Assembly (NCBI GenBank): GCA_950097015.1
Contig: CATNEN010000001.1
Span: 4,030,001-4,094,000 of the forward strand
DNA length: 64,000 nucleotides
Reading direction: 5' to 3'
From: Macrostomum hystrix
Lineage: Eukaryota > Animalia > Platyhelminthes
How positions within the stretch are numbered: the first letter of the stretch is position 1; each line of letters begins with the position of its first letter. The notes under the pieces were generated by a model. It saw only the letters and a program-made list of their open reading frames with translations, had not been told where the DNA came from and searched no databases. Below are positions 25,895 to 56,398 of this stretch, piece by piece. The position numbers and the translations under genes were made by a program.

Positions 25895-25896
25895 AC

Positions 25897-28384: not shown

Positions 28385-28423
28385 GAATGGCAAATACGCT
28401 GTTTTCCATATCTATACTCAACA

Positions 28424-29281: not shown

Positions 29282-29661
29282 TAAACTTATGTTTCAACAG
29301 TTAAATAAGAAGACGACGACGGCTGAACAAAGTGTAACGTTTTTCATGCAATCTGCCACTTGTTTAAAAAGTGTGCATTTTAACCAATTTTATTTTGAAA
29401 ATCTGACTTCGATTGGTCTTTCTTGAGCATTTTGCTATGCTTGAGCATAGCAAATTTAAACAGATCACCACTAAAAGCATGGGAAAAGCACACCTACCAC
29501 CACCACCCAGATTATGTACTCCTAAAACAAATAAAACGAACACGAGCAAACAGAAATAAGAAAAGTGAGTATTATTTAGATAATTAATGATAATTAATGG
29601 ATAATGGATAAAAACGAGTAGCAAAATTAGCAAAAAAAGAAAATAACAACTGTCGCTTCAT

Positions 29662-32600: not shown

Positions 32601-33510
32601 GATTCCTCAGACCTTTTTTGCTGTTCAGGAGCCGGTACAGGTTCGAAACTGCACACCAGTGTCCAGTCCCACAATTCTCAACATCATTATCATCATCATT
32701 AGCATAATCAGAGCATGAGTTGCGAAGCAAGAGTAGAGGAATAACCTTGCGAGAGGCACAAAGCCCAGGAAGTGGCTGGCGAATGACATAGGCCTCATCA
32801 TGCTCCCAGGTAAAAACTGTGAAACAGATTTCGGGATTCTTTTCTTCTATAACTTCTAAATCGGAAATTGCGATTGGTAAACTGATGCCGCTCAGATCGA
32901 TTTCACCCAGCCATCTGCTGTAAGTTGTTAGTCGATGACAGGACTTCATCACACCAGGATCACTGCTGTGCAGGTAAGCAAGACAGGCAAATAGAAAGCA
33001 ATAATTTCCATTGCTCGGTGGGTTCATGATGGCCTTCTTAACTACTAGCCGATTGGGCACAGTAAAATTAGCACATCTTCCTCGATAGTAGCGAATGCGA
33101 TCAGTGAGGGCAGAGCTCAGATCAAAATAGTTGATTTGTTCAACTATCCAACCACTCCCATTTGCATTGTAGGTTGGATCTTGCGTTCCAGCTCAGAAAA
33201 CTGCTGCAGCCACCACAATTCAAAGTCTCTAAGATCAGTAAGAAGCTCGAGACTGCATGCGAACCACTTATCCTCCGCATTAACTACCATTGCTTCTTTG
33301 ATTCTCACCATTCTAATGTTGAACTTAAGCTGCGCTCGAACAGAATTGTTCTCGGATGAATCTCATCTCATCTCAACAGCCTGTAGCACTGCGAACTTAG
33401 TAGATGTTAAAAAGTGAAATGGATCGAGACCTCTTGAGGCTGGAGTGAAGCGTCTTACCTGCAGTATGTCATCATGCGCACTGGCCTGAACAGCCGAGCT
33501 GAATTGAATG
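29662..33510 (-). pseudogene. pPolB of Polinton-2 with Endonuclease VII-like insert, frameshifted
   Basis: ORFs 31864-33060, 30512-31831 and 29662-30555: VYADFE, DHDHLSG..GAAC..CN, HNLRGYD, KGVFPYD, DANNLYG, KLKNNS, GDTDS and RPKLYS. The N-terminal part to ~33510 has stops. Confidence 0.94.
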
Positions 33511-35680: not shown

Positions 35681-36011
35681 AGCTTACATGGACTCAACAT
35701 TTATTCAAAGTGACTCTTGTGAAGCTCGCACCGGCGGGACACAATGCCTGTGTGGTATGAGTCAGACCAGGCCTACGGGCTAAGGTCTGCGATGCCTCAC
35801 ACCTGCAGTCGTTTTTTGAGCAGGCTTGGCAGGAAGGAGACCTGTGCCCTCGGGTGCAGGAATCCTCTCCACGTTGTCCCGTCAGCTGACCCATGGGTAC
35901 ACGTCCCGCGAGTGTTCAAGGCTGACCCTAGGGCAGCTGGACAGAATGGGCAACAGCGCTGGACGACCCATCCAGGGCCTCTGGCCAAACTGGGTACCTC
36001 TAGCCCTGGCT

Positions 36012-36635
36012 GGAGGGAAAGGTGTCACCCTTTGACCTTAACAGGGTATGCGGCCAGTCCGCAGCGTTCGTGCACCTGTGCGTGATCAGGTACCTCTGGC
36101 TACGGCTCGGAGGGAAAGGTGTCACCCTTTGACCTTAACAGGGTATGCGGCCAGTCCGCAGCGTTCGTGCACCTGTGCGTGATGAGGTACCTTTGGCTAC
36201 GGCCCTGAGGGAAGGGTGTCACCCTTTGACCTTAACAGGGTATGCGGCCAGTCCGCAGCTTTCGTGCATCTGTGCGTGATCAGGTACCTCTGGCTACGGC
36301 TCGGAGGGAAAGGTGTCACCCTTTGACCTTAACAGGGTATGCGGCCAGTCCGCAGCGTTCGTGCACCTGTGCCTGATCAGGTACCTCTGGCTACGGCTCT
36401 GAGGGAAGGGTGTCACCCTTTGACCTTAACAGGGTATGCGGCCAGTCCGCAGCGTTCGTGCACCTGTGCGTGATCAGGTACCTCTGGCTACGGCTCTGAG
36501 GGAAGGGTGTCACCCTTTGACCTTAACAGGGTATGCGGCCAGTCCGCAGCTTTCGTGCACCTGTGCGTGATCAGGTACCTCTGGCTACGGCTCGGAGGGA
36601 AAGGTGTCACCCTTTGACCCTAACAGGGTACGCAG
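36012..36635 (+). repeat. 97-bp tandem monomers in the LINE 5' region (~6.4 copies)
   Basis: GGTGTCACCC recurs at 36021, 36118, 36215, 36312, 36409, 36506 and 36603. Confidence 0.95.
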
Positions 36636-36819
36636 TTTTGAACTGCGGGTCTGGCGCTGCTTTCTGCCGCCCTCTAAGGCCCAAGGTCTCGCCGTGCCGA
36701 AGGGCGCTTGGCCGGGGAGTAGTCCGGTCTTTAGCGGCTCCTTTTTTATTTCTTTTCTCTATTCTTGTGAGTCACCGCTCACCCTCCTCCCGCTTTAAGG
36801 AGGAGGGTGAGCTTCTTCT

Positions 36820-38375
36820 GCCCAATCTTATAAAGAAATCGAAACCGGGAATCCCCCGGCTGCTCCGGCCGCTACCAACAGCGCCAACGCCGCCCCATCG
36901 GAGGCTACTGGACCCGCTGCCGCCCTGTCTGACGGGAGACCTGCCCCCCGGACCTATAGGCATCCGGTCCCAGGAAGCCCGTCACGGCCGAAACCAGCGC
37001 CGCAACGAGCGGCGTCGGCGTCAGCGCGAAAGGGAGGCCGCGGTTCGGCAATCCGCGGAGGTGGTGCCTCAAGTGGGCGAAGGTGCGGTTGGGCCGAAAG
37101 GAGCCACCGCCACCTCAGCCCCTCGGGAAACTACCTCCGCTGGGTCGCCACCCGCTGAGCCCTCCAGCAACACAAACACCGGAAACGTGGCTGGGCCATC
37201 CGGAGCCGCCACACATGCAACGATGGCCAGCGAGGCCCCGGCCAGCCAACCATCTACCAAGGCCAAGGAGTTCTACGCCTCCAAGGCCAGTGCCATGCTC
37301 CAACCCGCGGTCATCGTTTTTGAGGAAGAGAAAGACCTCACGGCCGAGCAGCTCGACAGTGCCTGGCGCATCATCGACGCTGCGCTCATTGACCAGCTCC
37401 TGGCATGCCGCCCGGTGAGCGTGGTCAAATCGGCCAAAACGGAGCCGTCCGAGTTGCATTTTCATCTGGTGCAACTCGGAGGAAAGCAGCCGAGCTCTAC
37501 GCGAGCTTCTGCCACAGCTAAAGTGGCCTAAGAAGCTCGGCAAGCTCACCTTCGCTAGCGAAGGCCAACGCCTTAAGACCGAGCGCTTCCGCGTTTGGAT
37601 CCCGAATGGCAGTGCCATCAAATCTGGGGATCAGCTTAGGCAGATTCTGCTGAAGCTGCACCCCGACCTTGAGGCCAACGGGCTCCTTCACCATGCCTCC
37701 TCCCGCAAGGAGACGGGGTTCACGGTGATCCTGGGGCTCTCGGATGCGTGGACCAAGCGCCTGCCGCCAAAGTCCATCATTCACCTCGGTCTAACTCAGC
37801 TGACCATCCTCCGCTGCGAGGAGCGGAAAGCTGGGGAAGCCAAAAAAGCCAAAGCTCCTGAGCCCGGATCCGGGGCGCAAGCTCCTCTGGCGAAGAAGCA
37901 GAGGCAAACGGTGGATCCCCACACCGGTAAAGCAGCTCGCGCTGCCGAATCCGGACCTCGCGACCACAGGCCTGCCAGGTCCACCCGGAGATCTGGGCTG
38001 GTCCAGCGTGCGCTGGAACAAGCCAGGACCCTCAGGGCGCACCTCGAGCGGGTCCACAAACCGAACGCTCCACCGAAGCAGCTAGTGGGGCAGGAGCGAC
38101 GAGGAGAGGCGCCGACTGACTCGTTTGATGCTAGCAACCACCAGGCGGATCGCGCCATCCACGTTGACCTGACCGACGAGGCGAGCCTGGGCAGCATCGG
38201 CGTCACGACGCAAAGGGACGGCGAGGGAGACACTCATGCTGGGCATATGTCCGCTGAGGGCTCCTCAGCCACCCTGACCGCCAGGGGCGCCGAGATTCCC
38301 ATGGAGCTATGCGAGCCTTCCATTTCCGAAAAGGAAGAGGAGGAATTGCTACGCGACTCCCCTGCGCGGCCATGA
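36820..38375 (+). pseudogene. LINE ORF1-like region, frameshifted
   Basis: Arg-rich and low-complexity ORFs (36533, 37725) whose stop overlaps the ORF2 ATG at 38372. Confidence 0.6.
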
Positions 38376-40470
38376 TCAGCAGTCCAGGAATTAGCGGCCT
38401 GCAGATTAATCTGCAACACAGCGTCGCAGCTTCGGCTAACCTGATGCGTCAAGCCGAGCTCGACAAGCCGGGTCTCATCCTAGTCCAGGAGCCGTCTCCA
38501 AAGGTAAGCCCCAAAACGTGCCTTCTGGGTATCAACGCCCACCATACCCACTGGGGCAGCACAGGGACAAACCAGAGAGGCGAAGACCTCCTGTCCTATG
38601 TTACCTCTACGACCCTGGAGTTCTGTAACTCCGGGTCTACGCCTACCTTCGACAATGGTCGCTGGTCAGAGGTGATTGACGCCACGCTCGCTTCACCCAA
38701 GCTCTTTCAGAGTATCGGGGAGTGGCGCGTTCTTCCGGAGCCATCCCTCTCTGACCATAAGTTCATTCACTTTCGTGTGGCGAGCGCTCGCAGCCATAAC
38801 CACATCACGTGGAGACGGAACGCCAGAAATACTGATTCGGAAGCCTTCAGGCATGCCTTGGAGGCAACCCATCGGTCTTCGGGCCAACCACCCACTATTT
38901 CGACGTGCCGAGAGGCGGACGAGTGCGCGACTGTTTTAACAGTCCGCTAACCGCCGCCTTCGAGGCTGCCTGTCCCCTAAAAGCCTACAAAGGGAAGACA
39001 TTTGCGCCGTGGTGGAATCCTCAGCTCGGCGAACTCCGTCGCAGAGCGAAGAAATTACACAGAAATTAGACCACACTGAGGGAGGCCAGATGCTGGCTGC
39101 CTCTATCATCACGGAGGACCGCATCGTTAAAGCGGCCACCTCCTTTAAGCCTTTCAAGGCTCCAGGGCCTGATGGCATCGTACCTGCCTTTCTTAGAGAG
39201 GCGGTTAAACGCCCAGGTTTCCTGCGCTCTCTTTGCAGCCTCTATCGAGCCTGCATCACGCTCGGGTACGTCCCGCAGGCATGGACCGAGGCGAAGGTGA
39301 TTTTTATCCCGAAGCCAGGCCGCCCGGACTACCAGTCTATTAAATCCTTCAGACCAATCAGCCTAACCACCTTCCTGGTCAAGCTGATGGAGAGACTAGT
39401 GCTGTGGCGCCTTCTCTCAGTGGAACTGAAGAACGCGCCGCTCAGCGACAACTAGCATGCTTTTCGGGCGGCTCGCTCCACCGAAAGCGCGCTGCACGTT
39501 CTGGTCGACAAATTGGAGAAAGCTGTGCTTGGCACCGGCTTCGCCTTAAGTGTCTTCCTGGACATTGATGGTGCCTTTGACAACGTCCTCTTCGAAGCGT
39601 TCCGCAAAGCCCTTTACGAGAGGCACACTCACTCGTCCCTCACCAGATGGATCATGTATATGATCAGTCATCGCACGGTCACTGCCAACCTGCTGAGCCA
39701 CCAACGGACGGTCCCCGTCCGCAAAGGGAGCCCGCAGGGAGGGGTCCTCTCTCCTATTCTCTGGAACATGGTCATTGACGAGCTCCTCCGAGACGATCAT
39801 CCTGACCCAATCCTGAAGGTGGGGTATGCGGACGATGTCACTGCTGTGGCGTCTGGCCCATCCCCTGACACTCTCAGGGACCTCCTTCAGAATTTCATCC
39901 ACTCTGCTGAACAATGGGCGGGTCGCTGTGGTCTGAAGCTCTCCGAGACCAAGACTGCAGTGATCATGTTCACCAGCAGAAACAAGCGGCAGATACAGCC
40001 GCTTAGGCTTTACGGTAAGGAAATTTCCTTCTGTAAGCAAACCAAATGCCTAGGGATCACCTTGGACCATAGGCTGAACTGGTCTCCCCATGTTCAAACC
40101 AAAACCAAGAGGGCCCTCGCGATCCTCGCGCAGCTGCGGAGGGCCGTTGGCACCACCTGGGGGCTCACCCCCAAGCGCCTCTGGTGGATCTATACTGCAA
40201 TGGTCAGGCCAGCTGTCTCGTACGGCAGCTTGATCTGGGCCAGTGCCCTGCAGATGAAGACCTGCCTGGAGGCACTTAGGAAAACGCAAGGGCGCGCTTG
40301 TCGCATGACCATGAGTGCCCCACCGTCTGCTCCTTACGACGGCCTCAATGCCTTCCTCGACGCTCCCCCGCTGGACATTTTTGTCCGCAGGGAAGCCGCC
40401 AAAACAGCGCGTCGGCTCATTGATGCCGGCGTCCGCTTCACGCCGCAAAGAGCAATGGCAAAGCGCAAAC
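38372..40470 (+). pseudogene. LINE ORF2 (APE endonuclease and RT), with deletions and stops
   Basis: Motifs in ORFs 38309, 39009 and 39513. Confidence 0.9.
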
Positions 40471-40530
40471 AACAAATTTGTAGCTTTTTTATTAAAAAGC
40501 CATATTTTCTTTCTGACCTCCATCGTATTT

Positions 40531-40908
40531 CCATGGCTTTCCCTGCGGCAGAGTACATCAATGCATTTACATAGGCTCCTATGTTCACTCACTAACCCCA
40601 AGGTTACTCCAGCCATAGAAAAGCACGATATGAAATTTCAGGTCTCTATGCATTTCAAATATTTGTGCGGAACGTAATGCAGTGAACAGTGAATATACTT
40701 CTGGCATGCTTTGTAAAAGTGGGTCAGTAATGTACACTACCCTTGTTTCTATTTTTAGCAAATCCGACTGGGCCTCCCCGGAACTGCCACGGCTTTCCCT
40801 GCGGCAGAATCCACCAATGTATTTACATAGGCTCCTATGTTTACACACTGAGCCCCGTGGCTTTTCCACGGAAAATCCTGCGGCAGAGTGCACATAACCC
40901 CTACTACT
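40531..40908 (-). repeat. right TIR of Polinton-2
   Basis: Inverted copy of 20772-21138 ending CTACTACT. Confidence 0.95.
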
Positions 40909-42074
40909 CCCTAGCTTTCATAGGCTTGGCTACACCAGTTAAGGCGGACTTTGCCAGTTTCACATCAACTGGATGCCGATTCACGATTTCGACAACGGCA
41001 GAGCCTTCACGCATAGTAACAAGAGTGGGGACCATTTCTAAAGTCCACTCTTTGGCTCTTACGCCTTCTCCAACTACTTCGATAGTCATCGGTGTACCAT
41101 AGTTACATTCTCAGCCTTTGGCTAGCCTCACAGGAATTCTTAATGCACTGTTAGCTGGAATAACAGTTCTCTCCTGAGTGTACACACTGCAAACTTTCAC
41201 TGGGAGATGCGTAAACTGCATTGGGATACACGATCCTTCATGGAGTACTAACATGCCGTTGGCAATGTTAATGCTCTCACAGTATCCAAGGAAAAACTCC
41301 ATTCCAAGTATATTGTCACATTCGTGACTACATAACAAGAAATCGATTTCTACCTGGATTTCGCCAAATTTCACAAAAATGCAGCATTCTCCTTCTAGTT
41401 GTACTCGTGTGCCATCAAAGGTGGAGACTCTTTTATTAGTGCTTTTGATCTGGTCAGACTTAATCAGCTTTGTCCATACGGACTTACTCAGGTAGCTGTT
41501 TCTTGCTCCCGTGTCAAGGATAAAATTCACATCGGTCTTTTTGATGCTTCCTACTACTACTGCTTCGTAACCTTCGGGTTGCACTAATTCTAGTTTAACA
41601 TTAGAACAAGTTTTAAAAATATTCTCACGTGTCCTTTGATTTTTCTTTGCAGGCCTTCCGACGAGTCTTCGGCTCTAGTTCCTCTGCTGAATCTTCTTCG
41701 GTTGCTTCGTCGATTGCTGACTCTTCGGACACTGAGACTGCTGATAACCTGGGTGCTGGCATGCTGAGTGATGACGCAATAGGTGCTGACGCGATAGGTG
41801 CTGATACTCGGGGTGCTGACGCATTGGGTGCTGATAGTCGAGGTGCTGACGCAATAGGTGCTGATAGTCGAGGTGCTGACGCAATAGGTGCTGATAGTCG
41901 AGGTGCTGACGCATTGGGTGCTGGTGCTGACGCAATAGGTGCATAACGCCTTCCTCTTTGGTAAAAACACTGGGACTTCACGGGATATCGAGATTTCTGG
42001 GAGGTCTGGGTTTCGAACTGGGGTTCACAAGAGGGGCGTGGCCTCGACTGTCGTCCGTCGGCATTCAGTTTCCC
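40909..42074 (-). pseudogene. Gypsy-A pol 5' part (repeat spacer and aspartic protease)
   Basis: FILDTGA and NILGMEF protease motifs (41111-41584); several stops and frameshifts. Confidence 0.85.
41770..41945. repeat. 15/30-bp coding tandem repeat (APIAS/APRLS)
   Basis: GGTGCTGA-based units read directly. Confidence 0.9.
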
Positions 42075-42979
42075 TGATGGGAATTCTGAGGTGCAAACTG
42101 CTTCAGCGGATACTGCCTTGAATTCTGACAGTTCTTCGCGATATGGCCTATTTTTCGGCAATTATAGCAAGTCGGCGGAGGCCTTGACTGCTGATATGGC
42201 TGCTGGAACCTAACCTGCTGCTTCATGAGCGGCTGGGGTTGTCTGTTCTGGCTTTCTGCCTTACTTTTCTCTTGGATGAGAGTCTCAATCATCTTCCTCT
42301 GCTTATTAATTTCCATCTTCTGTTTTTCGATTAGTTCTTCGAGATTTGTCTGCTGTTCATCGCCTAGTTCACCCTTCATTACTCTCAAGCCGTTCTTATG
42401 AGACATGTGCCAGGCGGCTTCTATCCTCCTCAGCATACGTCTGGCTTCTTGCAAACTGGCGGGTTGTGCGAAAATCAGTTTCTCTCGGGTGTCTGCAGGG
42501 ACTCTGGCACCTTTGATAAACTGTTCCACGACTTCCTCCTCACGCTGTTCAGCATTCATGTTAGGGAAGGCGCGGGATGCTAGTTCAATAAGTGCATCCG
42601 CGAATGAGTCAGTCGCTTCATTTCGTCCTTTTATTCGTCCACGAAATTCTTCTCTGAATTCCGATGAACTGCCCAATCGGCCAAATCTTTCCACCAACCT
42701 CTCCTTAAACTCGTCATAGGTCAATTCTTCAGGTAAGTTCAATCGTTGGACTGCCGCAAACGCAGTGGCTAAGTCCAGGTTAGCCAATAGTTCACTGTTT
42801 CTGTGTTCTTCTTGTTCGATCCCTTCGGTGTCACACCTTTGATCGAAGGCAGTCAGCCAAATCCGAATGTCCTGACTCGATGTATATTTTTTAATTTTCA
42901 CGTGCCTCATTGGGCCTAATTCTAACCGATTTCTCAATTCTTCTGCTAGTAGCCCAATGGCATCATTGATTCCTGCCAT
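42065..42979 (-). CDS. gag: Gypsy-A gag
   Basis: Capsid-like region and zinc knuckle CYNCRKIGHIAKNC; ends at a GGGAAAC slippery site; clearly similar to the gag at 51360. Confidence 0.9.
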   Translation of the reverse strand: MAGINDAIGLLAEELRNRLELGPMRHVKIKKYTSSQDIRIWLTAFDQRCDTEGIEQEEHRNSELLANLDLATAFAAVQRLNLPEELTYDEFKERLVERFGRLGSSSEFREEFRGRIKGRNEATDSFADALIELASRAFPNMNAEQREEEVVEQFIKGARVPADTREKLIFAQPASLQEARRMLRRIEAAWHMSHKNGLRVMKGELGDEQQTNLEELIEKQKMEINKQRKMIETLIQEKSKAESQNRQPQPLMKQQVRFQQPYQQSRPPPTCYNCRKIGHIAKNCQNSRQYPLKQFAPQNSHQGN

Positions 42980-44362: not shown

Positions 44363-44560
44363 AATATACATTTTATTCCATAATGCATTCACTAGCTTGA
44401 AGGAAGCAATAGATCTTTTCTGTTAATACACGTGCAGGACACTGGCTTAAAAAACACGTATGAAACATTCGCCGACACTTATTCAGACACTTCTACAGAC
44501 ACTTAAGTTTCTGTCGTACGGTTATGAACAAGCATTAGATTTGTCCAGGACACTTCCTAA

Positions 44561-45381
44561 TGTTGTACTCGCGACTTCCCGGAGGGGTGCCCCTAGGAGG
44601 GTCAGAGTACGCGGGCCCGTGCTGGCCTGCGTCAGGGCGCGAGTGTCCGCACGGGACCCTAAGTCTGGGGCGTCAGGACGCACCCAAGTGGCCGGCACAC
44701 GCGTCGGGACGCTGTGATGTCGATCACCCTTCAGCGGGGCGGCAGGGCGCACGAGCTGGCGTCTGAGTACAGCGGGCGTACAGTACAGGGTGACCCCTGG
44801 CTGGCTACCTGGTCTAGTCCCCCTCCTTAGTCGGCGTCAGGACACACGGACGGTCCCCACTACAGCCCCCGAAATGAAGGAGACAAGGCAGCGACTTACT
44901 TCTGGTTCACTCGCACTCGTGCGGGTAGTCAACTTCGTTCAGCGGACTTCTGATTGCGGCTGGCAGACCGGGTGGTCGATATTTATTAGTTATTATTTGT
45001 GCGTGGGGGACGGGTTATGGAAACAGAGTCAGGCGTTGTAGAGCGTGAACACGCGCACGGGGCAGCCACCCGCCCCCGGCCGCGCCTTTATAGGACACGG
45101 CTCACGAAGGGCCGGGGCCCCCTCCCCCGCCCCACCCCCACCCACCACCCCGGCCCAGCTACCCACCGGCCAATCACGGCGCAGCTGGGGGAGGGGCAGC
45201 CTGGGGCGAGGACCAAAAAGGGCGGCCCAGCCAACAAGCGCGCAGCCAACACAATGGCGGCTAAGCGGCTTACACCGCTGAGCCTTTAACGCCAAAACAA
45301 CAATGCCAAAAACAACTGCGAGTGCACTTGTTGCGCAGGGGGGCGAGTGCACTTGAGCAGTGCAAGCGCACGTGCACAACA
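44561..45381 (-). repeat. 3' LTR of Gypsy-J (821 bp)
   Basis: Near-identical to 52510-53330; preceded on the minus strand by PPT GAGAGGCGGGG (45382-45392). Confidence 0.97.
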
Positions 45382-46048
45382 CCCCGCCTCTCAAAAAAAA
45401 GAAAACACAATTATGGACAGAAAACGCGTAGTACAGTAATCACCCGCCACCAAAAAAGATAGTGCTGCTAAACTAAAAAGAATGACGCAAGGCATGACCC
45501 CCAAAAATCAAATGAGAAGACAAAAAAAGGAATTCCAAAAAGGATGATGCAAGGTCTGTCACTCAAAGGGCAACGATGAAAAGGGCCAAACAATGACGCA
45601 AAATCTGAACAGTCACTTCAGGCAGGGCCCACTCGCCTCCCCTGGTGGTGTCAGAGCTCCAGCTGTCTTTTGTAGCGGCGGCATGTCCCCGTCCGGATCC
45701 AGCGTGGCGTCCTCCCCAGCCTCGGGTCCGGGTCTGCGTCGGTCTACGATTTGATCTCCTTTCCGGCGTCGCTGCCCGCGTCTAGAGCCTTCTGCCGCAG
45801 CGCGAGGCCGGTGACCCGCGACCCGCTTGCCAACCTGCGTCGTCGCCTGACGACCCGGCTGGCCGGCACTCCACGGCCGCAGGATCTTCCTCACTCCGCT
45901 CCGGAACCGGCCACCGTCTCGTCCCCATCACCTCGGTTGCCCCCCCTTAACAAACACAGCCCTACTTTCCGGGATCGCGAGCCAACACCACTGACCACCC
46001 TCAAGGGCACCTGCCTGCCACCCGCCCGCACACCCCACACTCCACCCA

Positions 46049-47032
46049 CTAGCACTCGCACGCCACCACCCGCGCACACCAGCGCAGCAGCGCGTGGATT
46101 TGGCCCGCACCTAGCAGCTCGAACCGTGGGATCACCACCTTCCGCATCACTCGCGCTGCTTGCTTAAAACAATCGCTTTTCCAACCGCTCCGGCGACCGC
46201 GTCCCTTGGACCATGTCACTGCCATGTCCCGTCGCAGGAACTTGAGTACTTGAAGCGTCACCGCCGTCAAATAACGCCTCGGCTCTTCCCGCCGCGCCCT
46301 AAACAGGTCAGCCAGCTTCTCATACACGTTCACGATCCCTTCCTCATCGCCCTTCAGCAGTGCCGTTCTCAGACCCCGGCGCAGCTCCGTAAATCTCGCT
46401 GTGATCGGTAACGGTAGCTTCTCCATCTCGACTGTCGTCGCCCCTACCGATACCAGCACCCAAGCCTCGACATCAGGCAGGTCCTCCCCGTCTGTCTCCA
46501 TCTCTTCGGCCTGGTCTGTTTCGTCGTCGCTGATAATGATGCAATAGCCGCTGTCTGGCGCATAGCTTCGCTCGAATGACTGACGGAAACCCTGTTCCTC
46601 TGCCTCCCAGCCGGGTGACCGACTTCCATCGCTGCCGGCAGACTCACTGGCGGTTCCCCCGGGTTCGTCGTCTACACGGGAGGCGTCCGTCTCCGGTTGC
46701 TCGTCCTCACCCGACATGTCTTCCTCTTCCAGCCTGATCGCTTCCAGGATGTCCTCTGGCACGGGGATGTCCCTCGGGAGTTGTGTCTGTCTGGCCAACT
46801 CTACCGCCGCGCTGAACGAGATCGACGCATCCCCGTAGATGTCATACAACCACCGCCGAAATGGGCAACCGAGAATTTCATACGCGACGTTGAGGGCTTT
46901 GCATTTCTCCTCGGCGAATGCCCGGTCTGGGTGCTTGTCTGGGTGATACTTCAGGGCTAGCCGTCGGTAGGCTCTCTTGACTGCGGTAGCCTCCACCCAC
47001 TGGTCGATCTCCAGCTCGTCATACAAGGACAT
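46049..47032 (-). CDS. J-domain (DnaJ/Hsp40-like) protein, retrotransposon ORF3
   Basis: SLYDELEI...VKRAYRRLALKYHPDKHP...AEEKCKALNVAYEILG.P.RR.LYD.YG is a complete J domain with HPD; followed by an acidic linker and a helical/basic C-terminus; intact 327 aa. Confidence 0.92.
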   Translation of the reverse strand: MSLYDELEIDQWVEATAVKRAYRRLALKYHPDKHPDRAFAEEKCKALNVAYEILGCPFRRWLYDIYGDASISFSAAVELARQTQLPRDIPVPEDILEAIRLEEEDMSGEDEQPETDASRVDDEPGGTASESAGSDGSRSPGWEAEEQGFRQSFERSYAPDSGYCIIISDDETDQAEEMETDGEDLPDVEAWVLVSVGATTVEMEKLPLPITARFTELRRGLRTALLKGDEEGIVNVYEKLADLFRARREEPRRYLTAVTLQVLKFLRRDMAVTWSKGRGRRSGWKSDCFKQAARVMRKVVIPRFELLGAGQIHALLRWCARVVACEC

Positions 47033-47148
47033 CTACGGGGTATCATTTCTTGCCGTTACACTCGCATTTCGCTCCTAATTCTGATCCGTGTGCCTGCCGA
47101 CTCATCCACCCGCCACTACCACCTACCCACCGCCGCCCCCGCACCCGT

Positions 47149-50100
47149 TCAGAACCTTAGCCGATCCGGCGGTCGTCGGGGCCGAGTCGGATATCTCCTG
47201 GGGGTGGCAGTCTCCACCGCGGGCTCTTCTGGTCTTGCCCATGCTTCCGAACGGACACTTTGAGGCGACTCCGAGCTTCTCGCGCTACCGCCGACCTCGT
47301 TCTCCTGCCCCGGCTCCACCTCTGCTGGTGGTGGTCGGCCACGTCGGCCTACCTGCTCAGCTTCCTCCTCTTCTTCCTGGCTCTGCCCGTCCTCTTGCAC
47401 CGCACCTCCTTCCTCCTGGCTTGCTTCGTTCGCCGCTGACCTCGACTTCTTAAAAGGCGACAGGTTGTTGAAATGCACTCTTTTGGTCTTCCTTGGATTA
47501 GCCGGATTCTGGACTTCGTACACGGTCTCGGAGATCTTGCGCACTACTTCCACTGGCCCCTTCCAATCGACCCGGAACTTGTTTGGCACCTCCCCAGGCT
47601 TGGCTGGCGCGAAAACAAAGACTAGGTCCCCTGGTTGGTGCGCGGATCCACGGACTTTCCTGTCGTAATAGTCCTTCTGCAACTTCTGGTATGTGCAGGT
47701 CGCTTGTCGCACTGCCTCATGCGCTTGATGGAGGTGCTCCCTCAAACCGGCCACATACGTTGACTTGTCCGTCGGCTCTTGTGGTGTTTTGTAAGCTACA
47801 TCCAGTGGCAATCGCATCTCTTGGCCATGCAGGAGGAAGTACGGCGTGTAGCCAGTGCCGCGATGCACACTTGAACGGTACGCCATCAAGGCTGAGTCGA
47901 TTAGCTCATCCCATTTGTGTGGTTCTGCGCCTTCAGCGATGTAGCTCCGCAGTACCGACTTCAACGTTTGATTGAACTTCTCCACCTGCCCATTTCCGCT
48001 TGGGTGGTAGGCCGTGGTTCTGGTTTTCTTGATTTTCAAAAGAGTACACAGCTCTCGCATTACTTGAGACTCGAAGTTCCGCCCTTGGTCGCTGTGAATC
48101 GAGCTCGGGCAACCATAGATACTAATCCAGTGCCCAAATATGGCCCGCGCTACTGTGGATGCTCGTTGGTTGCGGATCGGGATCGCCGCCGGCCACTTAG
48201 TGAACGCATCCTGCATGGTTAAGATATACTGATGTCCTCTGGCACTCCTTGGCAACGGCCCGACAATGTCCACCATCACCGTCTCAAAGGGTTCGCCCGT
48301 TCGAATCGGCTCCAGTGGGGCTCTAGCCTTCTTCGCTAACTTCGAGCGGCCGCAGGCTTCGCAGCTCCTTACGCACTCGGCAATCTCGCGGCTGATCCCA
48401 GGTCTCCAGAATCGCTCCAGGATCTTCCGCTTGGTCTTGAGCAGTCCAAAGTGACCGCCTGCAGCACCGCTGTGACAATCCGTGATGACTTTCTGCACCA
48501 AGCTCCGCGGCAAGACAATCTGGTCTGTATTTTTCCATCTCCGCACCAAGACCTGGCCAGACGTCTTGAGCAGCTCCCGCTGCGCGCTGAGTGCCCTGCC
48601 GGCTGGGGTCCGCCTAAGCTGTTCAACCACCCCTTCGTTGCCACCGACCAGCTCCTTCATTAACCTGATTTCTTCTTCCAAGTCTTGTGTCGCTGCTAAC
48701 TCTACACGCCCGTCCTCCACTCTTAGCGCGTTTGTCAGCACGGCGTTCAATGGGGCTTGCTCCGAGCATGACGGACACTCCAGGAACCCGACGTGTCGCC
48801 GCGTCTGACGTCTGGACAGCGAGTCTGCGTTTCCGTGAGACAGACCGCTGCGATGCACCACGTAGTAGTCAAATTCTGCCAGTTTCTCAAGCCATCTTGC
48901 ACACTGTCCCTCCGGGTCTTTTAGGTTCTGGATCCATTTCAGATTGTGGTGATCCGTACGCAAGCAAAACTTCTTTGCCGCCAAGTAATAGCGGTACTTG
49001 ACCATGAATGTCACTACAGCCAGCAGCTCCACTCTTGTTGTGCAATAGTTCCGTTCCGCCGATGACAACGACCTCGACCCGTAAGCAATCACCTTCTCGC
49101 TTCCGTCCGACTGTCTTTGCGACAGTACGGCCCCGATGCCAATGGACGAGCTCGCATCGGTGTCCAGCACGAATTCACCGGCGTTTGGTCCGAAGTCCGG
49201 AAACGCCATCACGTCCGTACTGGTCAGCTTCACCTTTAGCTGCTGGAATGCTTCTTCCTGCTCGGGACCCCACTCAAACTCGGCCCCTTTTCGTGTTAGT
49301 CGAAGCAGTGGTTCGGCGACGCTCGAGAAGTGCTGGATGAACCGCCGGTAGTAGCTGCAAAGGCCCATAAAGGACTGTACATCCTTGGTGCTCTTTGGTG
49401 TCGGCCAACTCCTGACGACTTCCACCTTTTCGCTCTCGGTTTCTACTCCGTCCTCTGACACCTGGTGGCCCAGAAATGTTACCTTTTTCAGGAGGAAGTG
49501 GCACTTCTCGGGCTTTAACTTGACGCCGGCCTCCCGCAGCCGCACAAAGACTTCTTCCAACCTTTCCAGGTGCTCCTCAACCGATTTGGACCAAACCAGA
49601 ATGTCATCCAGGTAGATTAAGCAGGTTTTCCAGGCTAACCCGTGCATTGCGACCGTCATGAGGCGTGTGAAAGTGGCTGGGCTGTTGACGAGCCCAAATG
49701 GCATCACTCTCCACATATACTGGCCCCTCTGCGGCACCGAGAACGCTGTCTTGAGCTGGTCTGCCGCATTGACTTTCACCTGCCAGTATCCACTGTGCAG
49801 ATCCATCGAGCTGAACACCTTAGCTCCTGCCAGTTCGTCTAGGGCGTCATCCATCCTCGGCAGCGGAATCGCGTCCCTGGTTGTCACTTTGTTCAATCCG
49901 CGATAATCGACGCACATTCTTAAGCTGCCGTCCTTCTTTCGTACACAAACTATTGGTGCGTTCCAGGGGGACTGCGCCGGCTCAATGCGGCCCTGCTCCT
50001 CCAGCTCGTCGATGAGGGCATGAACCTCCTGCCGCAGGTGCGGGGACAGCCTTCGCGGTGGGATGTTGACCGGTCTGGCGTCCCCGGTCTCGATTTGGTG

Positions 50101-51396
50101 TTCCACCAAAGGTGTCACGCCCAGCTGCGCTGAATCCGTCGCAAAAATGTCCGCGTACGATGTGATCAGACTCTTGAAACCCTGGCGCTGGTCCTCCGTC
50201 GTCGCCGCCCCGCCCCATTCACCGAGCTTTTTGAATACGGTCTCCGCTCGAGGTCGAGATTCTGCTGCTGCTTGACGGGGCTCCGCTGGGTCGTCCTTCA
50301 AGGTCGCTATCTTCAGGCTTCCGAGTTGTAGTGGTCGATACCACCCGACTGTCTCTCCCCGTCGCAGCCGTACTGGCTGCTCCGACACATTGCAGACCCG
50401 CACAGGCATCTCTCCCTTTTCGTCCGGCGTTACTAGTGCTCTTGCCGCAATCACGCCGTCCTCAGTTGTTTGCTTCCTCGGATCCATCATGCCTGCGACT
50501 CGTGCGCTGGTGCCGCCTTTTCTTTCAAGTCGCCCGACGAGTACTGTCTCGTGACCCGGCTCCAATGTCGTGGTCTCCTGCACACGGATCCGGCACACAA
50601 CGGGTCGTTCTCGCTGAAACCGGATCGGCAGTAGCGCATCTCTTAGCTGAAGCACTGCCCTGGCGTAGTCAATCTGGCAGCCATGCCGTTGGAGGAAATC
50701 TGATCCCAACACAAGCTCGTAGCCGATGCCCGCGACGACCAGAACGTCGATTGGGACACGCTCTCCCACTTCCAGATCCAAAGTCGTGACGCCTATTACT
50801 TCAATTGGACTGCCGTTGGCTGTCGTGACCCGGGCGAATGCTCCGCGGAGGAGCTGCGGCCTGCCCCGAAGCCGCAAGAACCTTGCTTCGGACATGACGG
50901 TACAGGACGCTCCTGAATCTAGCAGCGCGGACACTTGACCGCCTCCGGCGAGTTTTAAATCGACATAGACTGATGTTGGGGTGATGCTGATGGACGCCTG
51001 TGGCAACCTCTGGTTGGTGGGGCCGTCGCCACCAACCGATGAGGCCACCGGGTTGGTAGACGCCGACTTGGTCGCTCCCGTTGAAGGCGTGGTCAGATTG
51101 GCCCACGATGCTGTAGTAGGACCAGTTGTTGGTTCGACGGTGTTGACGTGAGGTGAAGCAGTAGGGTAGGTTGATGACGCGATAGTGCTGACAAACGATG
51201 ATGCAGTAGGGGTGGTTGATGACGCGATAGTGTTAACGAACGATGATGCAGTAGGTATGGTATATGACGCAAAGGATGACGCAGTCAAAGATGACTTGAA
51301 TGACGCATGATGACGTTCTCGCAGCTTCGCACCTGGGGGGCCTCCATCGTGTCCGGACCTCACTTCCCCCACCGCGGATCCGGAGTACCGTTTCCC
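47149..51396 (-). CDS. pol: Gypsy-J pol (PR-RT-RH-IN), via -1 frameshift
   Basis: LLDSGAS, YLDD, DTDASS, TDH, H..GH..C..C, DIVGP, SDQGRNFES and GQVEKFN; over 1400 uninterrupted codons. Confidence 0.97.
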   Translation of the reverse strand, partial: GKRYSGSAVGEVRSGHDGGPPGAKLRERHHASFKSSLTASSFASYTIPTASSFVNTIASSTTPTASSFVSTIASSTYPTASPHVNTVEPTTGPTTASWANLTTPSTGATKSASTNPVASSVGGDGPTNQRLPQASISITPTSVYVDLKLAGGGQVSALLDSGASCTVMSEARFLRLRGRPQLLRGAFARVTTANGSPIEVIGVTTLDLEVGERVPIDVLVVAGIGYELVLGSDFLQRHGCQIDYARAVLQLRDALLPIRFQRERPVVCRIRVQETTTLEPGHETVLVGRLERKGGTSARVAGMMDPRKQTTEDGVIAARALVTPDEKGEMPVRVCNVSEQPVRLRRGETVGWYRPLQLGSLKIATLKDDPAEPRQAAAESRPRAETVFKKLGEWGGAATTEDQRQGFKSLITSYADIFATDSAQLGVTPLVEHQIETGDARPVNIPPRRLSPHLRQEVHALIDELEEQGRIEPAQSPWNAPIVCVRKKDGSLRMCVDYRGLNKVTTRDAIPLPRMDDALDELAGAKVFSSMDLHSGYWQVKVNAADQLKTAFSVPQRGQYMWRVMPFGLVNSPATFTRLMTVAMHGLAWKTCLIYLDDILVWSKSVEEHLERLEEVFVRLREAGVKLKPEKCHFLLKKVTFLGHQVSEDGVETESEKVEVVRSWPTPKSTKDVQSFMGLCSYYRRFIQHFSSVAEPLLRLTRKGAEFEWGPEQEEAFQQLKVKLTSTDVMAFPDFGPNAGEFVLDTDASSSIGIGAVLSQRQSDGSEKVIAYGSRSLSSAERNYCTTRVELLAVVTFMVKYRYYLAAKKFCLRTDHHNLKWIQNLKDPEGQCARWLEKLAEFDYYVVHRSGLSHGNADSLSRRQTRRHVGFLECPSCSEQAPLNAVLTNALRVEDGRVELAATQDLEEEIRLMKELVGGNEGVVEQLRRTPAGRALSAQRELLKTSGQVLVRRWKNTDQIVLPRSLVQKVITDCHSGAAGGHFGLLKTKRKILERFWRPGISREIAECVRSCEACGRSKLAKKARAPLEPIRTGEPFETVMVDIVGPLPRSARGHQYILTMQDAFTKWPAAIPIRNQRASTVARAIFGHWISIYGCPSSIHSDQGRNFESQVMRELCTLLKIKKTRTTAYHPSGNGQVEKFNQTLKSVLRSYIAEGAEPHKWDELIDSALMAYRSSVHRGTGYTPYFLLHGQEMRLPLDVAYKTPQEPTDKSTYVAGLREHLHQAHEAVRQATCTYQKLQKDYYDRKVRGSAHQPGDLVFVFAPAKPGEVPNKFRVDWKGPVEVVRKISETVYEVQNPANPRKTKRVHFNNLSPFKKSRSAANEASQEEGGAVQEDGQSQEEEEEAEQVGRRGRPPPAEVEPGQENEVGGSARSSESPQSVRSEAWARPEEPAVETATPRRYPTRPRRPPDRLRF

Positions 51397-52325
51397 TCCG
51401 CACGACAGCTGGCCGCCACATGCCCAGTACTACCGCACCGGTAGCAGCGAACAGCGTGGTAGGCCCTGGCCCTTGGTGGGGGTCCTGCCGCTTTCTTCGG
51501 ACACTCCCTGGCCACGTGACCCTTCTGACGACACGTCCAACACTCGACGCCTCCCTGCGGGACAGCCTTCGACGGCTGACTCGGCCGGTCTTCGATTCCA
51601 CCGGACGATGGTTTGGCCTGTTGCAGCTGCTTCTCCAGCTCCCTGATCCGTGCTCGCAGCGCGCCGACCTGGTCCTCTGATGCCTCTCCTGGGGTGGCTC
51701 CCAGGGCGTTGAACACGGCTGTCTTCCCCTTCGCCGATAGTCCGGCGTGAGCTGCCCGGAGCGCTGCGTCGAGCTGGCGAGCGCTGCGAATTGCGGCGGT
51801 CAGATCGACTGGCTGGCTGAGAAATAGCTTCTCCCGCACGGCCTCTGGTACCCGGGCCCCTTTTAGGAATCGATCCTTGGCCAGCTCCGACCTAGCCTCC
51901 TGGTCGATCGTCGGGTAAGCGTTGCGCACTATCTCGAGCAGAGCGTCGCCATACGCCTCCATCGACTCCTTCGGATCTTGGTCCCGACCGGCCAGCTCCA
52001 ACCTGTAGTCCTGCGGCGTCCGGTATTGACTGAACCTCTGAAGTAGTTGTTCCGTGAATCCCTGGTAGTCCTGATTCTCCTCGAACGACATGTTGTCGAC
52101 CGCTGCATAGGCCGTGCCGAGGTCCAACAGACTCATCAGATGCGGTCGGCGCTCTTCCTCCTCGATTCCACTCGCCTCGCAGAACTCGTTGAAGGTCCTC
52201 AGCCACAGCCGGAAGTTCATACCGGTCACATACTTGGTTGGCTTTGCCACGCGCGGCAGTCCATGGTGCAAATTTTCACGCAACCTCTCCGTCAGCGCAC
52301 CAATCAGGTCGTCGATACCAGCCAT
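51360..52325 (-). CDS. gag: Gypsy-J gag
   Basis: Two zinc knuckles, CWTCRQKGHVAREC and CYRCGSTGHVAASC. Confidence 0.95.
   Translation of the reverse strand: MAGIDDLIGALTERLRENLHHGLPRVAKPTKYVTGMNFRLWLRTFNEFCEASGIEEEERRPHLMSLLDLGTAYAAVDNMSFEENQDYQGFTEQLLQRFSQYRTPQDYRLELAGRDQDPKESMEAYGDALLEIVRNAYPTIDQEARSELAKDRFLKGARVPEAVREKLFLSQPVDLTAAIRSARQLDAALRAAHAGLSAKGKTAVFNALGATPGEASEDQVGALRARIRELEKQLQQAKPSSGGIEDRPSQPSKAVPQGGVECWTCRQKGHVARECPKKAAGPPPRARAYHAVRCYRCGSTGHVAASCRAEGNGTPDPRWGK
51390..51396 (-). promoter_or_regulatory. -1 ribosomal frameshift heptamer G GGA AAC
   Basis: In gag frame; a -1 shift enters the pol frame (KRYSGSAVGEVR); TCCGGA..TCCGGA stem downstream. Confidence 0.8.
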
Positions 52326-52487
52326 GAGTCGCAGTACAGCAGCGCGAGACTTTCCGATACGCGATTGAGAAGCTCAGCTCCGAGTTCGCTTCAGCCCGCA
52401 CAGCAATAACCCCCAGACGATCAATAAACACAATAGACACTACACAATTCAAACAGACACTCGCCTTCACAACTCACAGGCACAGCA

Positions 52488-52506
52488 GGCCCCACATTGG
52501 GCGCCA
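52488..52506 (-). promoter_or_regulatory. PBS complementary to tRNA-Lys 3' end
   Basis: TGGCGCCCAATGTGGGGC, one mismatch from the canonical Lys1,2 PBS TGGCGCCCAACGTGGGGC. Confidence 0.88.
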
Positions 52507-52509
52507 ATT

Positions 52510-53330
52510 TGTTGTACTCGCGACTTCCCGGAGGGGTGCCCCTAGGAGGGTCAGAGTACGCGGGCCCGTGCTGGCCTGCGTCAGGGCGCGAGTGTCCGCA
52601 CGGGACCCTAAGTCTGGGGCGTCAGGACGCACCCAAGTGGCCGGCACACGCGTCGGGACGCTGTGATGTCGATCACCCTTCAGCGGGGCGGCAGGGCGCA
52701 CGAGCTGGCGTCTGAGTACAGCGGGCGTACAGTACAGGGTGACCCCTGGCTGGCTACCTGGTCTAGTCCCCCTCCTTAGTCGGCGTCAGGACACACGGAC
52801 GGTCCCCACTACAGCCCCCGAAATGAAGGAGACAAGGCAGCGACTTACTTCTGGTTCACTCGCACTCGTGCGGGTAGTCAACTTCGTTCAGCGGACTTTT
52901 GATTGCGGCTGGCAGACCGGGTGGTCGATATTTATTAGTTATTATTTGTGCGTGGGGGACGGGTTATGGAAACAGAGTCAGGCGTTGTAGAGCGTGAACA
53001 CGCGCACGGGGCAGCCACCCGCCCCCGGCCGCGCCTTTATAGGACACGGCTCACGAAGGGCCGGGGCCCCCTCCCCCGCCCCACCCCCACCCACCACCCC
53101 GGCCCAGCTACCCACCGGCCAATCACGGCGCAGCTGGGGGAGGGGCAGCCTGGGGCGAGGACCAAAAAGGGCGGCCCAGCCAACCAGCGCGCAGCCAACA
53201 CAATGGCGGCTAAGCGGCTTACACCGCTGAGCCTTTAACGCCAAAACAACAATGCCAAAAACAACTGCGAGTGCACTTGTTGCGCAGGGGGGCGAGTGCA
53301 CTTGAGCAGTGCAAGCGCACGTGCACAACA
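52510..53330 (-). repeat. 5' LTR of Gypsy-J (821 bp)
   Basis: Partner of 44561-45381; followed by the CTAA TSD. Confidence 0.97.
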
Positions 53331-54599
53331 CTAATTTATATTTAATGTAATAAAGCAGTCCATGCATAGTTTTTATTTTGCAATTTTGTTTTTGTGCAGT
53401 CGCTCCAGACTTTTAAATTATGGGCTTTATCGCGTGTACGTACACATGCATCGTACAACGATTAGCTGCAGCGTGCTAAATAGTTCAATGAGGTATTAAA
53501 AGCGTACAAGGAGACGAACCTCAAGTATTTGTACCTTTTAGTTGAAGTTAAAAGTTCAAGCTTTTAGTGAATCATCAGAAAATAAAACTATCCGTTTTAA
53601 ATCGTGCAACATATTGTTTTGTCTCGGACATTTGTGACACTGTCACTTAGGGTTGCAAGGTTTTTTAAAGAGAAGCTTGTTGCTTTTCCAATGCTGAAGT
53701 ATTTGTGTTGTATGGATCAGGGTTTTTCGTCAAAATTTAGATGCATGTATGCATCTAAACATGTATATGCAGATGGAAATATGATAATCAAGATGCAATA
53801 TGTATATTTGCCTACATTTTCCGATTTTGTATAAAATGGAAAATGTTGAAGATTACCCTATGGTATAACTGTTTTCTCTCCATTTTACTATTTCAAAGTT
53901 CCCACGTGAATTTAGATTTAGCATGCCAGCCTTAAAAAATAAAAAATCTGCATAGTGTAGAATTGTATACTCTGTTATTTAAGGCTATAATATATTGCCA
54001 ATATATTTGCTTAGATAAATCAAAAAGTATTTACTTTACTTGAAAAAATAATGTTCACTACAAATTTTTCTGAGTGGAAACCAGGAAACATAAACCTATC
54101 AAGTGTTATATAGAAATAAAGCATAAAGATATGGATATAATATAATAGAGCCATTGTGGGCATTAAATATAAAACAAATGAATCACTAAAATCGAAATTT
54201 GAAAAAAGTGAATTTTTGGCATGTTGCAAGTAAAGAGGCTTATAATTTGAATTATTTTTTATTTTGCTTGACATAAAATATGTATAGATTTATACTTTTG
54301 GGCAAGGTTTATTATCTCTTAAAATTCTGATTGTAAATTTGCAAGTAAGCTTAAAAATTGTTTAAGTTGAAGCTCAAATAAAATCAGTCTTAATTCCGAT
54401 CTGACTTTCCAAAGTAAATCCCTAAATTATTTGTTACAATTGCTTTTAAAAACTTGCCCTTTCATTCATTCATTAATCAAAATTTTGTTCTAGAAATGAT
54501 GCAATAGGTTTTATACATATCAACCTTATATATAAAAGGTTGCACACTGAGATTTAAATAGAGCTTTTAACATGTGTGTCCAGAGGTGAGGTCATGAGG

Positions 54600-55689: not shown

Positions 55690-56320
55690 TGTTGTTGGGC
55701 TCTTTTATTAATAACAAAACTCACCTTAAATTGACCCTTTGAAATAATTCTTAATTTCCTTTGTCAATGACTTAATTATACTTGATAGACTGGCTTCTTA
55801 CTTAATATGTATATATAGCTAAATATGGTAGCGCTCGCACGAGTATCCGAGTGGCAAGACACTTCTTCCTCTCCTTACTTACTCAAAAACTATCTGGCTT
55901 TCTGGTTTTTCCCAGTCTTTCAAGTTCCAAATGGACTGAATTTGCCCAACTTTGCACACAGTGCTATTCCACCAATCAGGATTTACCCTCTGCTCTTTTA
56001 GTTATTACGCTATACTGCTTTTGATAATTATCTCCTTCTTTATTCTTTAGAATATTCACCGACTTGTGTGTGACCACAGACCTGCTTTTCTCTCTCTCTC
56101 TCTGAATAAGAACGATTTAAACACTGAGACTTATTCTCCTTTATTCAACACAGGACTGGGTACGGGGCACCGGTTGGAGTTCTAGGGCTAGTTTACGGTT
56201 ATATTTATAGCGAAAATTTGAGGTGGGTGATAAAGCACAGTAAAACAAAAGATAAAATCGGGGAAAAGTGTTTGGCGGGAATTCAAGTTAAAATATACGA
56301 TAAAATTAGGGCCTGCCTCA
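55690..56320 (-). mobile_element. solo LTR (family S), TSD ATAC
   Basis: TGTTG...GGGCCTGCCTCA with ATAC on both sides; homologous to the other two copies. Confidence 0.88.
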
Positions 56321-56398
56321 ATACTTATATTATGCCACACTAAACGAAAACATGGCAAATTCATACCATTAATTGTTTCTTGTTTCAGGCTTCTTTGC

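What the first reader, a model, noticed from the sequence alone, without database searches (positions are those of the whole stretch)
46049..47032. Young intact Gypsy retrotransposon carries a J-domain (Hsp70 co-chaperone) gene in the env slot
Seen: an intact, intronless 327-aa ORF with a full HPD J-domain sits 116 nt after the pol stop, in sense orientation and inside the LTRs. The LTRs differ at only 2 positions that I noticed of 821, and gag and pol are uninterrupted. Known: HPD J-domains activate Hsp70, and polyomavirus T antigens use one to remodel host complexes; the third ORF of Gypsy elements is normally env. Inference: this is an element-encoded accessory factor that recruits Hsp70 for VLP assembly or RT activation, or to dismantle silencing complexes. 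I am not aware of a described J-protein-carrying Gypsy family, but could not search.
Basis: partly seen in the sequence, partly recalled or inferred. Interest (0 to 1): 0.92.

Follow-up and report, generated by a model that had tools for sequence, protein, structure and literature searches.

The report
Retrotransposon clade encodes Hsp70-recruiting adaptor
An intact, recently inserted jumping gene, likely from a flatworm, carries a third gene, shared with its distant relatives, that joins a chaperone-calling J-domain to an otherwise unmatched domain and is predicted to steer the host's Hsp70 machinery, most likely against the complexes that silence transposons.

Summary
Observation confirmed. 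An intact minus-strand Ty3/Gypsy element (44561-53330; 821-nt LTRs, 2 mismatches; 4-bp TSD) carries a 327-aa ORF3 116 nt after pol. ORF3 is a J-domain with HPD, an acidic linker and a basic helical C-domain with no fold match; it is not env. It is old, element-borne cargo, not a one-off capture. Seven relatives share the C-domain and six of them also have the J-domain (HPD in 7 of 7 J-domains, this one included). Two Macrostomum lignano gene models join it to related Gypsy pol, and a third relative probably shares a contig with the closest pol. A C-domain profile found 6 hits in 1.84 billion proteins, none a recognisable host gene. New here is a SUMO-interacting-motif-like stretch (6 of 8 members, strict pattern). 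Best reading (inferred, about 0.4): a J-protein adaptor that aims Hsp70 at SUMO-marked silencing complexes. Main rival: a particle/RNA chaperone (0.3). No expression, dN/dS or binding data. No paper found in six searches; Repbase/Dfam could not be searched. This scan earlier noted J-domain ORF3s in Gypsy elements of another flatworm genome.

The parts
52510..53330 (-). 5' LTR, 821 nt, TG..CA; TATAAA at 53041, AATAAA at 52936; no heat-shock element
52843..52848 (-). candidate splice donor (GTAAGT) in the 5' LTR, no ATG between TATA box and donor; use is inferred
52489..52506 (-). primer-binding site just inside the 5' LTR (looks like a tRNA-Lys PBS; that assignment is recalled, not tested)
51360..52325 (-). 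gag, 321 aa, two CCHC zinc knuckles
51390..51396 (-). candidate -1 frameshift heptamer GGGAAAC with a downstream predicted stem (-24.2 kcal/mol, no shuffle control)
47149..51429 (-). pol frame, 1426 codons open: Ser/Thr-rich spacer, protease, weak dUTPase-like segment, RT, RNase H, integrase
47033..47034 (-). AG directly before the ORF3 ATG: candidate splice acceptor; weak pyrimidine tract; inferred
   Evidence: M. lignano model P0236 joins pol to the ORF3 start Met
46049..47032 (-). ORF3, 327 aa, class-C-type J-protein
46823..47032 (-). J-domain (residues 1-70), HPD at 46937-46945
46487..46723 (-). acidic, variable linker (residues 104-182; 25 D/E vs 4 K/R)
46520..46543 (-). SIM-like motif CIIISDDE (residues 164-171)
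46052..46420 (-). basic C-domain (residues 205-327; five predicted helices), with conserved GRRxW loop near 46190-46207; no significant fold match
45382..45400 (-). polypurine tract after a T-run
44561..45381 (-). 3' LTR, 2 differences from the 5' LTR
44557..44560 (.). target-site duplication CTAA (other copy 53331-53334)

Best explanation
ORF3 is a conserved accessory gene of a Gypsy clade, likely of flatworms, encoding a J-protein that is predicted to recruit host Hsp70 and likely aims it, through a SUMO-binding motif, at SUMO-marked silencing complexes on the element's own chromatin or RNA, loosening them so that the element is expressed. Shown: the gene, its architecture, its conservation, and its link to Gypsy pol in relatives. 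Inferred: expression from a spliced RNA (LTR donor to the AG before the ATG); Hsp70 stimulation (intact HPD); SUMO binding (motif only); the basic C-domain binding nucleic acid or a partner to give specificity; and anti-silencing as the outcome. The logic is that of polyomavirus T antigen: a J-domain plus a targeting motif makes Hsp70 take a host complex apart.
For: Conservation pattern: J and C domains are conserved while the linker varies (P0001 vs P0002/P0003: J 36/70 each, C 75/144 and 72/145, linker 16/49 and 17/66 with many gaps). HPD is present in 7 of 7 J-bearing members. ORF3 is joined to related Gypsy pol in M. lignano models P0116 (pol 54% identical; C-domain 12.8 bits, 0 of 5000 shuffles) and P0236 (integrase end 100% identical over 199 aa to P0115, directly followed by the ORF3 Met). 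P0233 and the nearest pol P0113 are both on a JGI contig of 7008 nt (same contig inferred from length). The C-domain profile gives 6 hits among 1.84 billion proteins. A SIM-like motif (strict pattern) is in 6 of 8 members, against 2 of 109 control J-proteins and 15 of 120 pol proteins; linker shuffles give 36, 647 and 874 of 20000. It fits the published SIM definition (PMC12751080, passages). SUMO/SIM scaffolding underlies Piwi-guided silencing in Drosophila (PMC8490990, passage) and ERV silencing in mammals (PMC10144533, passages). No transmembrane segment or N-glycosylation site in ORF3. GC3 matches gag and pol (0.70 vs 0.71 and 0.66; neighbouring gag 0.49).
Against: The SIM pattern was written after seeing four members; among the four members found later, 2 match it strictly, 1 loosely and 1 (partial protein) not at all. 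The motif does not sit in one alignment column across all members, and SIMs are loose motifs that acidic linkers favour. SUMO-dependent silencing is cited from flies and mammals, not flatworms. The ORF3-bearing form is low-copy in run X1 compared with LTR-matching contigs, and an internally deleted relative lacking pol and ORF3 exists, so ORF3 has not produced a visible burst. Nothing here shows nuclear location or a target.
Confidence: 0.4

Rival explanations
1. Particle or RNA chaperone: the basic C-domain binds the element's genomic RNA, Gag or Pol, and the J-domain brings Hsp70 for particle assembly, RT priming, uncoating or export of unspliced RNA (as CERV does for Cer1).
For: The C-domain is basic (27 K/R vs 12 D/E) with a conserved Gly-Arg-Arg-x-Trp loop (7 of 8) and has no recognisable host homologue. 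CERV precedent: PMC10309623 (search listing and start of abstract only).
Against: It does not explain the recurring SIM-like motif. Most Gypsy elements assemble without such a gene (established knowledge).
Confidence: 0.3
2. Integration tether: ORF3 links the integrase complex to SUMO-rich chromatin, with Hsp70 releasing it afterwards.
For: SIM-like motif; this copy sits in a window made of other mobile elements.
Against: No LEDGF-IBD/TFIIS-N chain appeared among the top fold matches, which is inconclusive. One insertion site says little about targeting.
Confidence: 0.12
3. Stress-response lever: ORF3 titrates or redirects Hsp70 so that the heat-shock factor stays active and drives LTR transcription.
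For: Some M. lignano LTR families carry heat-shock elements and are heat-induced (PMC12801592, abstract and first part). Hsp70 disassembles trimeric HSF1 (PMC13254874, passage).
Against: This LTR has no canonical heat-shock element, even allowing one mismatch, and no two-unit GAA/TTC array.
Confidence: 0.08
4. Passive cargo: a host DNAJ mRNA captured recently, with no role for the element.
For: The host genome could not be searched, so a lineage-specific host gene is not formally excluded. The genomic context of P0002, P0003, P0235 and P0237 is unknown.
Against: ORF3 is linked to pol in relatives whose RT-RNase H is only 63% identical; its domains are conserved around a variable linker; HPD is intact throughout; other J-proteins reach at most 53% identity and only over the J-domain; codon composition matches the element.
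Confidence: 0.05

Closest known systems
Non-env ORF3s of bdelloid rotifer LTR retrotransposons (DEDDy exonuclease, GDSL esterase; PMC5408684, passages read)
   Same: A family-specific third ORF after pol, not env, typically expressed from a spliced message; these elements also carry a dUTPase between PR and RT.
   Different: The cargo is an enzyme; 'DnaJ' and 'chaperone' occur 0 times in that paper.
Polyomavirus T-antigen J-domain and phage J-proteins (PMC13254874, passages read)
   Same: A mobile-element-encoded J-domain with HPD that recruits host Hsp70; for T antigen the review's reference list cites disruption of Rb-E2F complexes.
   Different: DNA viruses; no LxCxE motif here; a different C-domain; the review's passages on hijacking name no retrotransposon.
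VANC anti-silencing proteins of VANDAL transposons (PMC6719617, passages read)
   Same: A transposon accessory gene that counters silencing: the function proposed here.
   Different: A plant DNA transposon acting on DNA methylation with an unrelated protein; there the function is shown, here it is inferred.
CERV of C. elegans Cer1 (PMC10309623, listing and start of abstract only)
   Same: An LTR-element accessory protein beyond gag and pol.
   Different: Its role is nuclear export of genomic RNA; homology to ORF3 was not tested.
Errantivirus-type env ORF3 (PMC13524379, passages read)
   Same: Position after pol inside the LTRs.
   Different: No transmembrane segment or glycosylation sites here; 'DnaJ' occurs 0 times in that paper.
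Macrostomum lignano automated gene models PAA81942.1 and UniRef100_A0A1I8G8I7
   Same: The same J + C-domain ORF fused by annotation to related Gypsy pol.
   Different: Database labels only ('hypothetical protein', 'J domain-containing protein'); not described as a retrotransposon gene.

Membership tests
Ty3/Gypsy LTR retrotransposon | Paired LTRs (TG..CA), TSD, PBS and PPT | tested here: met
Ty3/Gypsy LTR retrotransposon | gag, then pol in the order PR-RT-RH-IN | tested here: met
Gmr1/Osvaldo or another named Gypsy clade | RT groups with named reference elements | not tested
   no named references in the tree; the pol nests with four M. lignano and two JGI sequences (100/97)
env-bearing errantivirus type | Third ORF after pol inside the LTRs | tested here: met
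env-bearing errantivirus type | ORF3 is a membrane glycoprotein (hydrophobic signal/TM segment, N-glycan sites, env homology) | tested here: not met
   maximum 19-residue hydropathy 1.07, 0 NxS/T sites; Pfam finds only DnaJ above cut-off
J-domain protein, class C | Complete J-domain with HPD | tested here: met
J-domain protein, class C | No class A/B zinc-finger or DnaJ_C domain; own client domain instead | tested here: met
   orphan C-domain
J-domain protein, class C | Stimulates Hsp70 ATPase | not testable with these tools
   needs a bench assay
SUMO-interacting motif | Four-residue hydrophobic core followed by Ser/acidic residues in a disordered region | tested here: met
   definition in PMC12751080; pattern partly post hoc
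SUMO-interacting motif | Binds SUMO | not testable with these tools
   no host SUMO sequence or assay at hand
Recent retrocopy of a host DNAJ | Near-identity to a host gene over its length | tested here: inconclusive
   no host genome; 109 of 111 hits match only the J-domain at 53% or less; the 6 C-domain hits include no recognisable host gene
DNAJC5/cysteine-string-protein-derived J-domain | J-domain groups with DNAJC5 in a tree | tested here: inconclusive
   top score in PDB (78.6 vs 72.3 bits; 77.2 vs 74.0), but unresolved in the tree
B12-binding cap (MetH/CarH) fold | Significant structural or profile match of the C-domain | tested here: inconclusive
   Z 5.2-6.8, rmsd 2.4-3.1 over about 80 residues; Pfam E 0.12; E. 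coli MetH cap reached by 162 of 2000 and 41 of 3000 shuffles
LEDGF IBD / TFIIS-N fold | Structural match of the C-domain | tested here: inconclusive
   lead recalled from memory

The most novel reading that the evidence does not exclude
A clade of animal LTR retrotransposons encodes a SUMO-guided Hsp70 'disassemblase': a T-antigen-like J-protein that reads the SUMO mark used by piRNA-type silencing and has host Hsp70 strip the silencing complex from the element. That would be a protein-based counter-defence of an animal retrotransposon, built from a captured J-domain and a new helical fold.
Probability: 0.3. Interest if true: 0.93.

Novelty: new variant of a known kind. Interest (0 to 1): 0.72.

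Why it matters
A 2019 review calls the plant VANC proteins perhaps the most convincing case of a transposon-encoded silencing suppressor (PMC6719617); whether animal retrotransposons encode such proteins is an open question (my reading). This gene gives a compact, intact candidate with separable parts (HPD, SIM-like motif, C-domain) and relatives in a laboratory model flatworm with transgenesis, so the question becomes directly testable. Under the rival reading it would still extend J-protein hijacking of Hsp70 from DNA viruses and phages to retrotransposons, and it adds an uncharacterised domain.

Tried and rejected
No whole genome was held, so copy number, host DNAJ set and insertion preference could not be examined. 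No RNA holder was listed; no conclusion on expression. Laying four DNA runs gave only one ORF3 sequence, identical to the window, so no dN/dS; runs X2-X4 have no cover of ORF3, which proves nothing. Empty-site contigs exist in X1 and X3, but the flank is repetitive in those runs, so I do not claim insertion polymorphism. Scans of viral contigs (no relative; 80 loci matching essentially only the J-domain) and of metagenome contigs (none) found no locus with DNA context. ESM Atlas gave only J-domain look-alikes at 0.84 and no usable hit for residues 150-327. The full-length single-sequence model was poor (pLDDT 48). The C-domain model was good (pLDDT 82, pTM 0.79) but had no match at E 0.001 or better in PDB or BFVD and best Z 7.1, within the range of common helical bundles. 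My recalled LEDGF-IBD resemblance was not among the listed matches. The MetH/CarH cap resemblance stays a weak lead. DNAJC5 as donor was not resolved, and P0116's partial J fell outside the six-member ORF3 clade as a long branch. No heat-shock element in the LTR. Literature searches for a J-domain LTR element (listings only) found none. The M. lignano LTR paper has 0 mentions of DnaJ in its text, and the DnaJ rows shown from its supplement are transcript clusters not labelled as LTR elements. Repbase, Dfam, subscription journals, bioRxiv supplements and that group's earlier classification papers were not seen and may bear on novelty.

Full report
Observation. The element lies on the minus strand from 53330 to 44561. 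Its LTRs are 821 nt, begin TG and end CA, differ at 2 positions, and are flanked by the 4-bp duplication CTAA; a primer-binding site and a polypurine tract are in place. gag (321 aa) overlaps an open pol frame of 1426 codons in the -1 frame, with a candidate slippery heptamer at 51390-51396; Pfam gives PR (weak), RT, RNase H and integrase in Gypsy order. ORF3 starts 116 nt after the pol stop, is 327 aa long, and ends 667 nt before the 3' LTR. Pfam DnaJ covers residues 3-64 (E 4e-16). A frame this long appeared in 1 of 2000 shuffles. One 4840-nt contig of DNA run X1 spans pol, ORF3 and the 3' UTR without a difference; X1 may be the window's source, so this excludes misassembly but is not an independent copy.

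Anatomy. ORF3 has a J-domain with HPD, a conserved extension to about residue 103, an acidic linker, and a basic C-domain. Residues 183-327, folded with a three-row alignment, gave pLDDT 82 and pTM 0.79, with five long helices from residue 212 on. No structure matched significantly. There is no transmembrane segment, glycosylation site or LxCxE motif, so this is not env. An AG lies directly before the ATG and a GTAAGT donor lies in the 5' LTR with no upstream ATG; a spliced subgenomic RNA is therefore likely but was not observed.

Relatives. Two protein searches found two full-length relatives, P0002 (47%) and P0003 (44%); the other 109 of 111 hits matched only the J-domain, at 53% or less. 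A C-domain profile against 1.84 billion representatives gave 6 hits: those two plus P0233, P0234 (cluster mate of full-length P0237), P0235 (partial) and P0236. The pol search listed 120 of 2513 hits; the nearest were two JGI proteins (62%, 58%) and three Macrostomum lignano models (54%, 54%, 52%). In an RT-RNase H tree of 47 rows (the 45 best of those 120, this pol and another RT from the window), this pol sits in a supported clade with four M. lignano and two JGI sequences (100/97). The host is therefore likely a related flatworm; this is inference.

Linkage to pol. Of the 120 pol hits, 1 carries a DnaJ annotation: P0116, an M. lignano model joining PR-RT-RNase H to a partial J-domain with HPD and the same C-domain (12.8 bits, 0 of 5000 shuffles; best of 109 control J-proteins 3.2 bits). 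P0236, another M. lignano model, has an integrase end identical over 199 aa to pol P0115, followed at once by the ORF3 methionine. P0233 and the nearest pol, P0113, are each on a JGI contig of 7008 nt, probably the same one. ORF3 identity falls in roughly the same order as pol identity: P0113/P0233 73% RT-RH, C-domain 48/120; P0115/P0236 63%, 41/118; P0116 63%, 25/108. With three pairs, two of them tied on pol, this is suggestive only. These are automated gene models, I could not see their LTRs, and the context of P0002, P0003, P0235 and P0237 is unknown.

Selection. HPD is intact in 7 of 7 J-bearing members, and 20 C-domain columns are conserved in at least 7 of 8 rows while the linker varies in length and sequence. 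Six J-domains form a supported clade (99/96) in a 41-row tree with few columns and an unsettled bootstrap; P0116 is a long branch outside it, and the donor is unresolved, although DNAJC5 scores highest among solved structures. Codon composition matches gag and pol. dN/dS could not be computed. In run X1 the ORF3-bearing interior is a single contig at depth 99, whereas LTR-matching contigs sum to roughly 700-5400 per bin, and a diverged internally deleted relative lacks most of pol and all of ORF3; depth is not a copy number.

Mechanism. The clearest clue beyond the J-domain is a hydrophobic core followed by Ser/acidic residues in the linker. A strict pattern matches 6 of 8 members, 2 of 109 control J-proteins and 15 of 120 pol proteins; shuffled linkers match in 36, 647 and 874 of 20000. 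The pattern was written after seeing four members; of the four found later, 2 match strictly, 1 loosely and 1 (partial) not. It fits the SIM definition (PMC12751080, passages). SUMO-SIM scaffolds hold together Piwi-guided silencing in flies (PMC8490990, one passage) and ERV silencing in mammals (PMC10144533, passages), and J-proteins direct Hsp70 to take complexes apart, as SV40 T antigen does (PMC13254874, passages and a reference title). I therefore favour an adaptor that aims Hsp70 at SUMO-marked silencing complexes (0.4) over a particle/RNA chaperone (0.3), an integration tether (0.12), a heat-shock lever (0.08; no heat-shock element in this LTR, unlike some families in PMC12801592, abstract, first part and supplements searched) and passive cargo (0.05). 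That ORF3 is a selected, element-encoded J-protein I put near 0.9.

Known or new. Non-env third ORFs are known (PMC5408684, passages; PMC6338049, passages), and so are viral J-proteins, so this is a new variant of a known kind. Six searches (listings only) found no paper on a J-domain ORF in an LTR element, and term look-ups for DnaJ gave 0 in PMC5408684, PMC6338049, PMC13524379 and PMC12801592; the J-protein survey PMC10410713 has 0 mentions of retrotransposons. Repbase and Dfam could not be searched. Earlier unchecked notes of this scan report J-domain ORF3s, some HPD-less and fused to a TatD-like domain, in Gypsy elements of another flatworm genome. I did not see those loci; my M. lignano hits agree with the general claim.

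Noticed in passing
window 50340-50730 (-), pol residues about 55-185 of the 47152-50895 frame: Weak dUTPase/dCTP-deaminase-like segment between protease and RT (Pfam E 0.005 and 0.025, below cut-off); a JGI label calls relative P0114 'dUTPase'. PMC5408684 says this domain is rare in retrotransposons.
   Followed up: no
window 50950-51390 (-): About 150 Ser/Thr-rich residues with short imperfect repeats lie between the frameshift site and the protease.
   Followed up: no
window 13300-33200: Broken Polinton/Maverick-like region: two DNA-polymerase-B-like segments and integrase-, capsid-, protease- and ATPase-like ORFs, with other elements nested inside. Read by eye from the ORF list; labels are recalled, not from a family search.
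   Followed up: no
window 42065-42979 (-): A second gag, 34% identical to this element's gag, followed by a 15-nt repeat array (41724-41948); no J-domain ORF elsewhere in the window.
   Followed up: partly
run X1 record of 5294 nt and run X3, joint 45662 to 50058: A diverged (about 91%) internally deleted relative that keeps LTR and 3' UTR sequence but lacks most of pol and all of ORF3: a possible non-autonomous partner.
   Followed up: partly
ORF3 residues 54-63 and 319: The end of the J-domain carries a family signature CP[FY]RR with a cysteine in 5 of 7 members, and C319 is conserved in 7 of 8; role unknown.
   Followed up: no
window 36500-40600 (+): A broken LINE-like element (endonuclease- and RT-like pieces, by eye) preceded by a 97-nt tandem array at 35915-36787.
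   Followed up: no
window 19408-20949 (-), 7776-9221 (+), 22872-23807 (-), 56234-58096 (+): Other Gypsy RT and integrase fragments (41% and 33% to this pol) and two transposase-like ORFs read by eye.
   Followed up: no
P0235 (JGI, 1132-nt contig): A partial protein with the C-domain whose preceding sequence does not resemble the J-domain; possibly a differently built variant.
   Followed up: no
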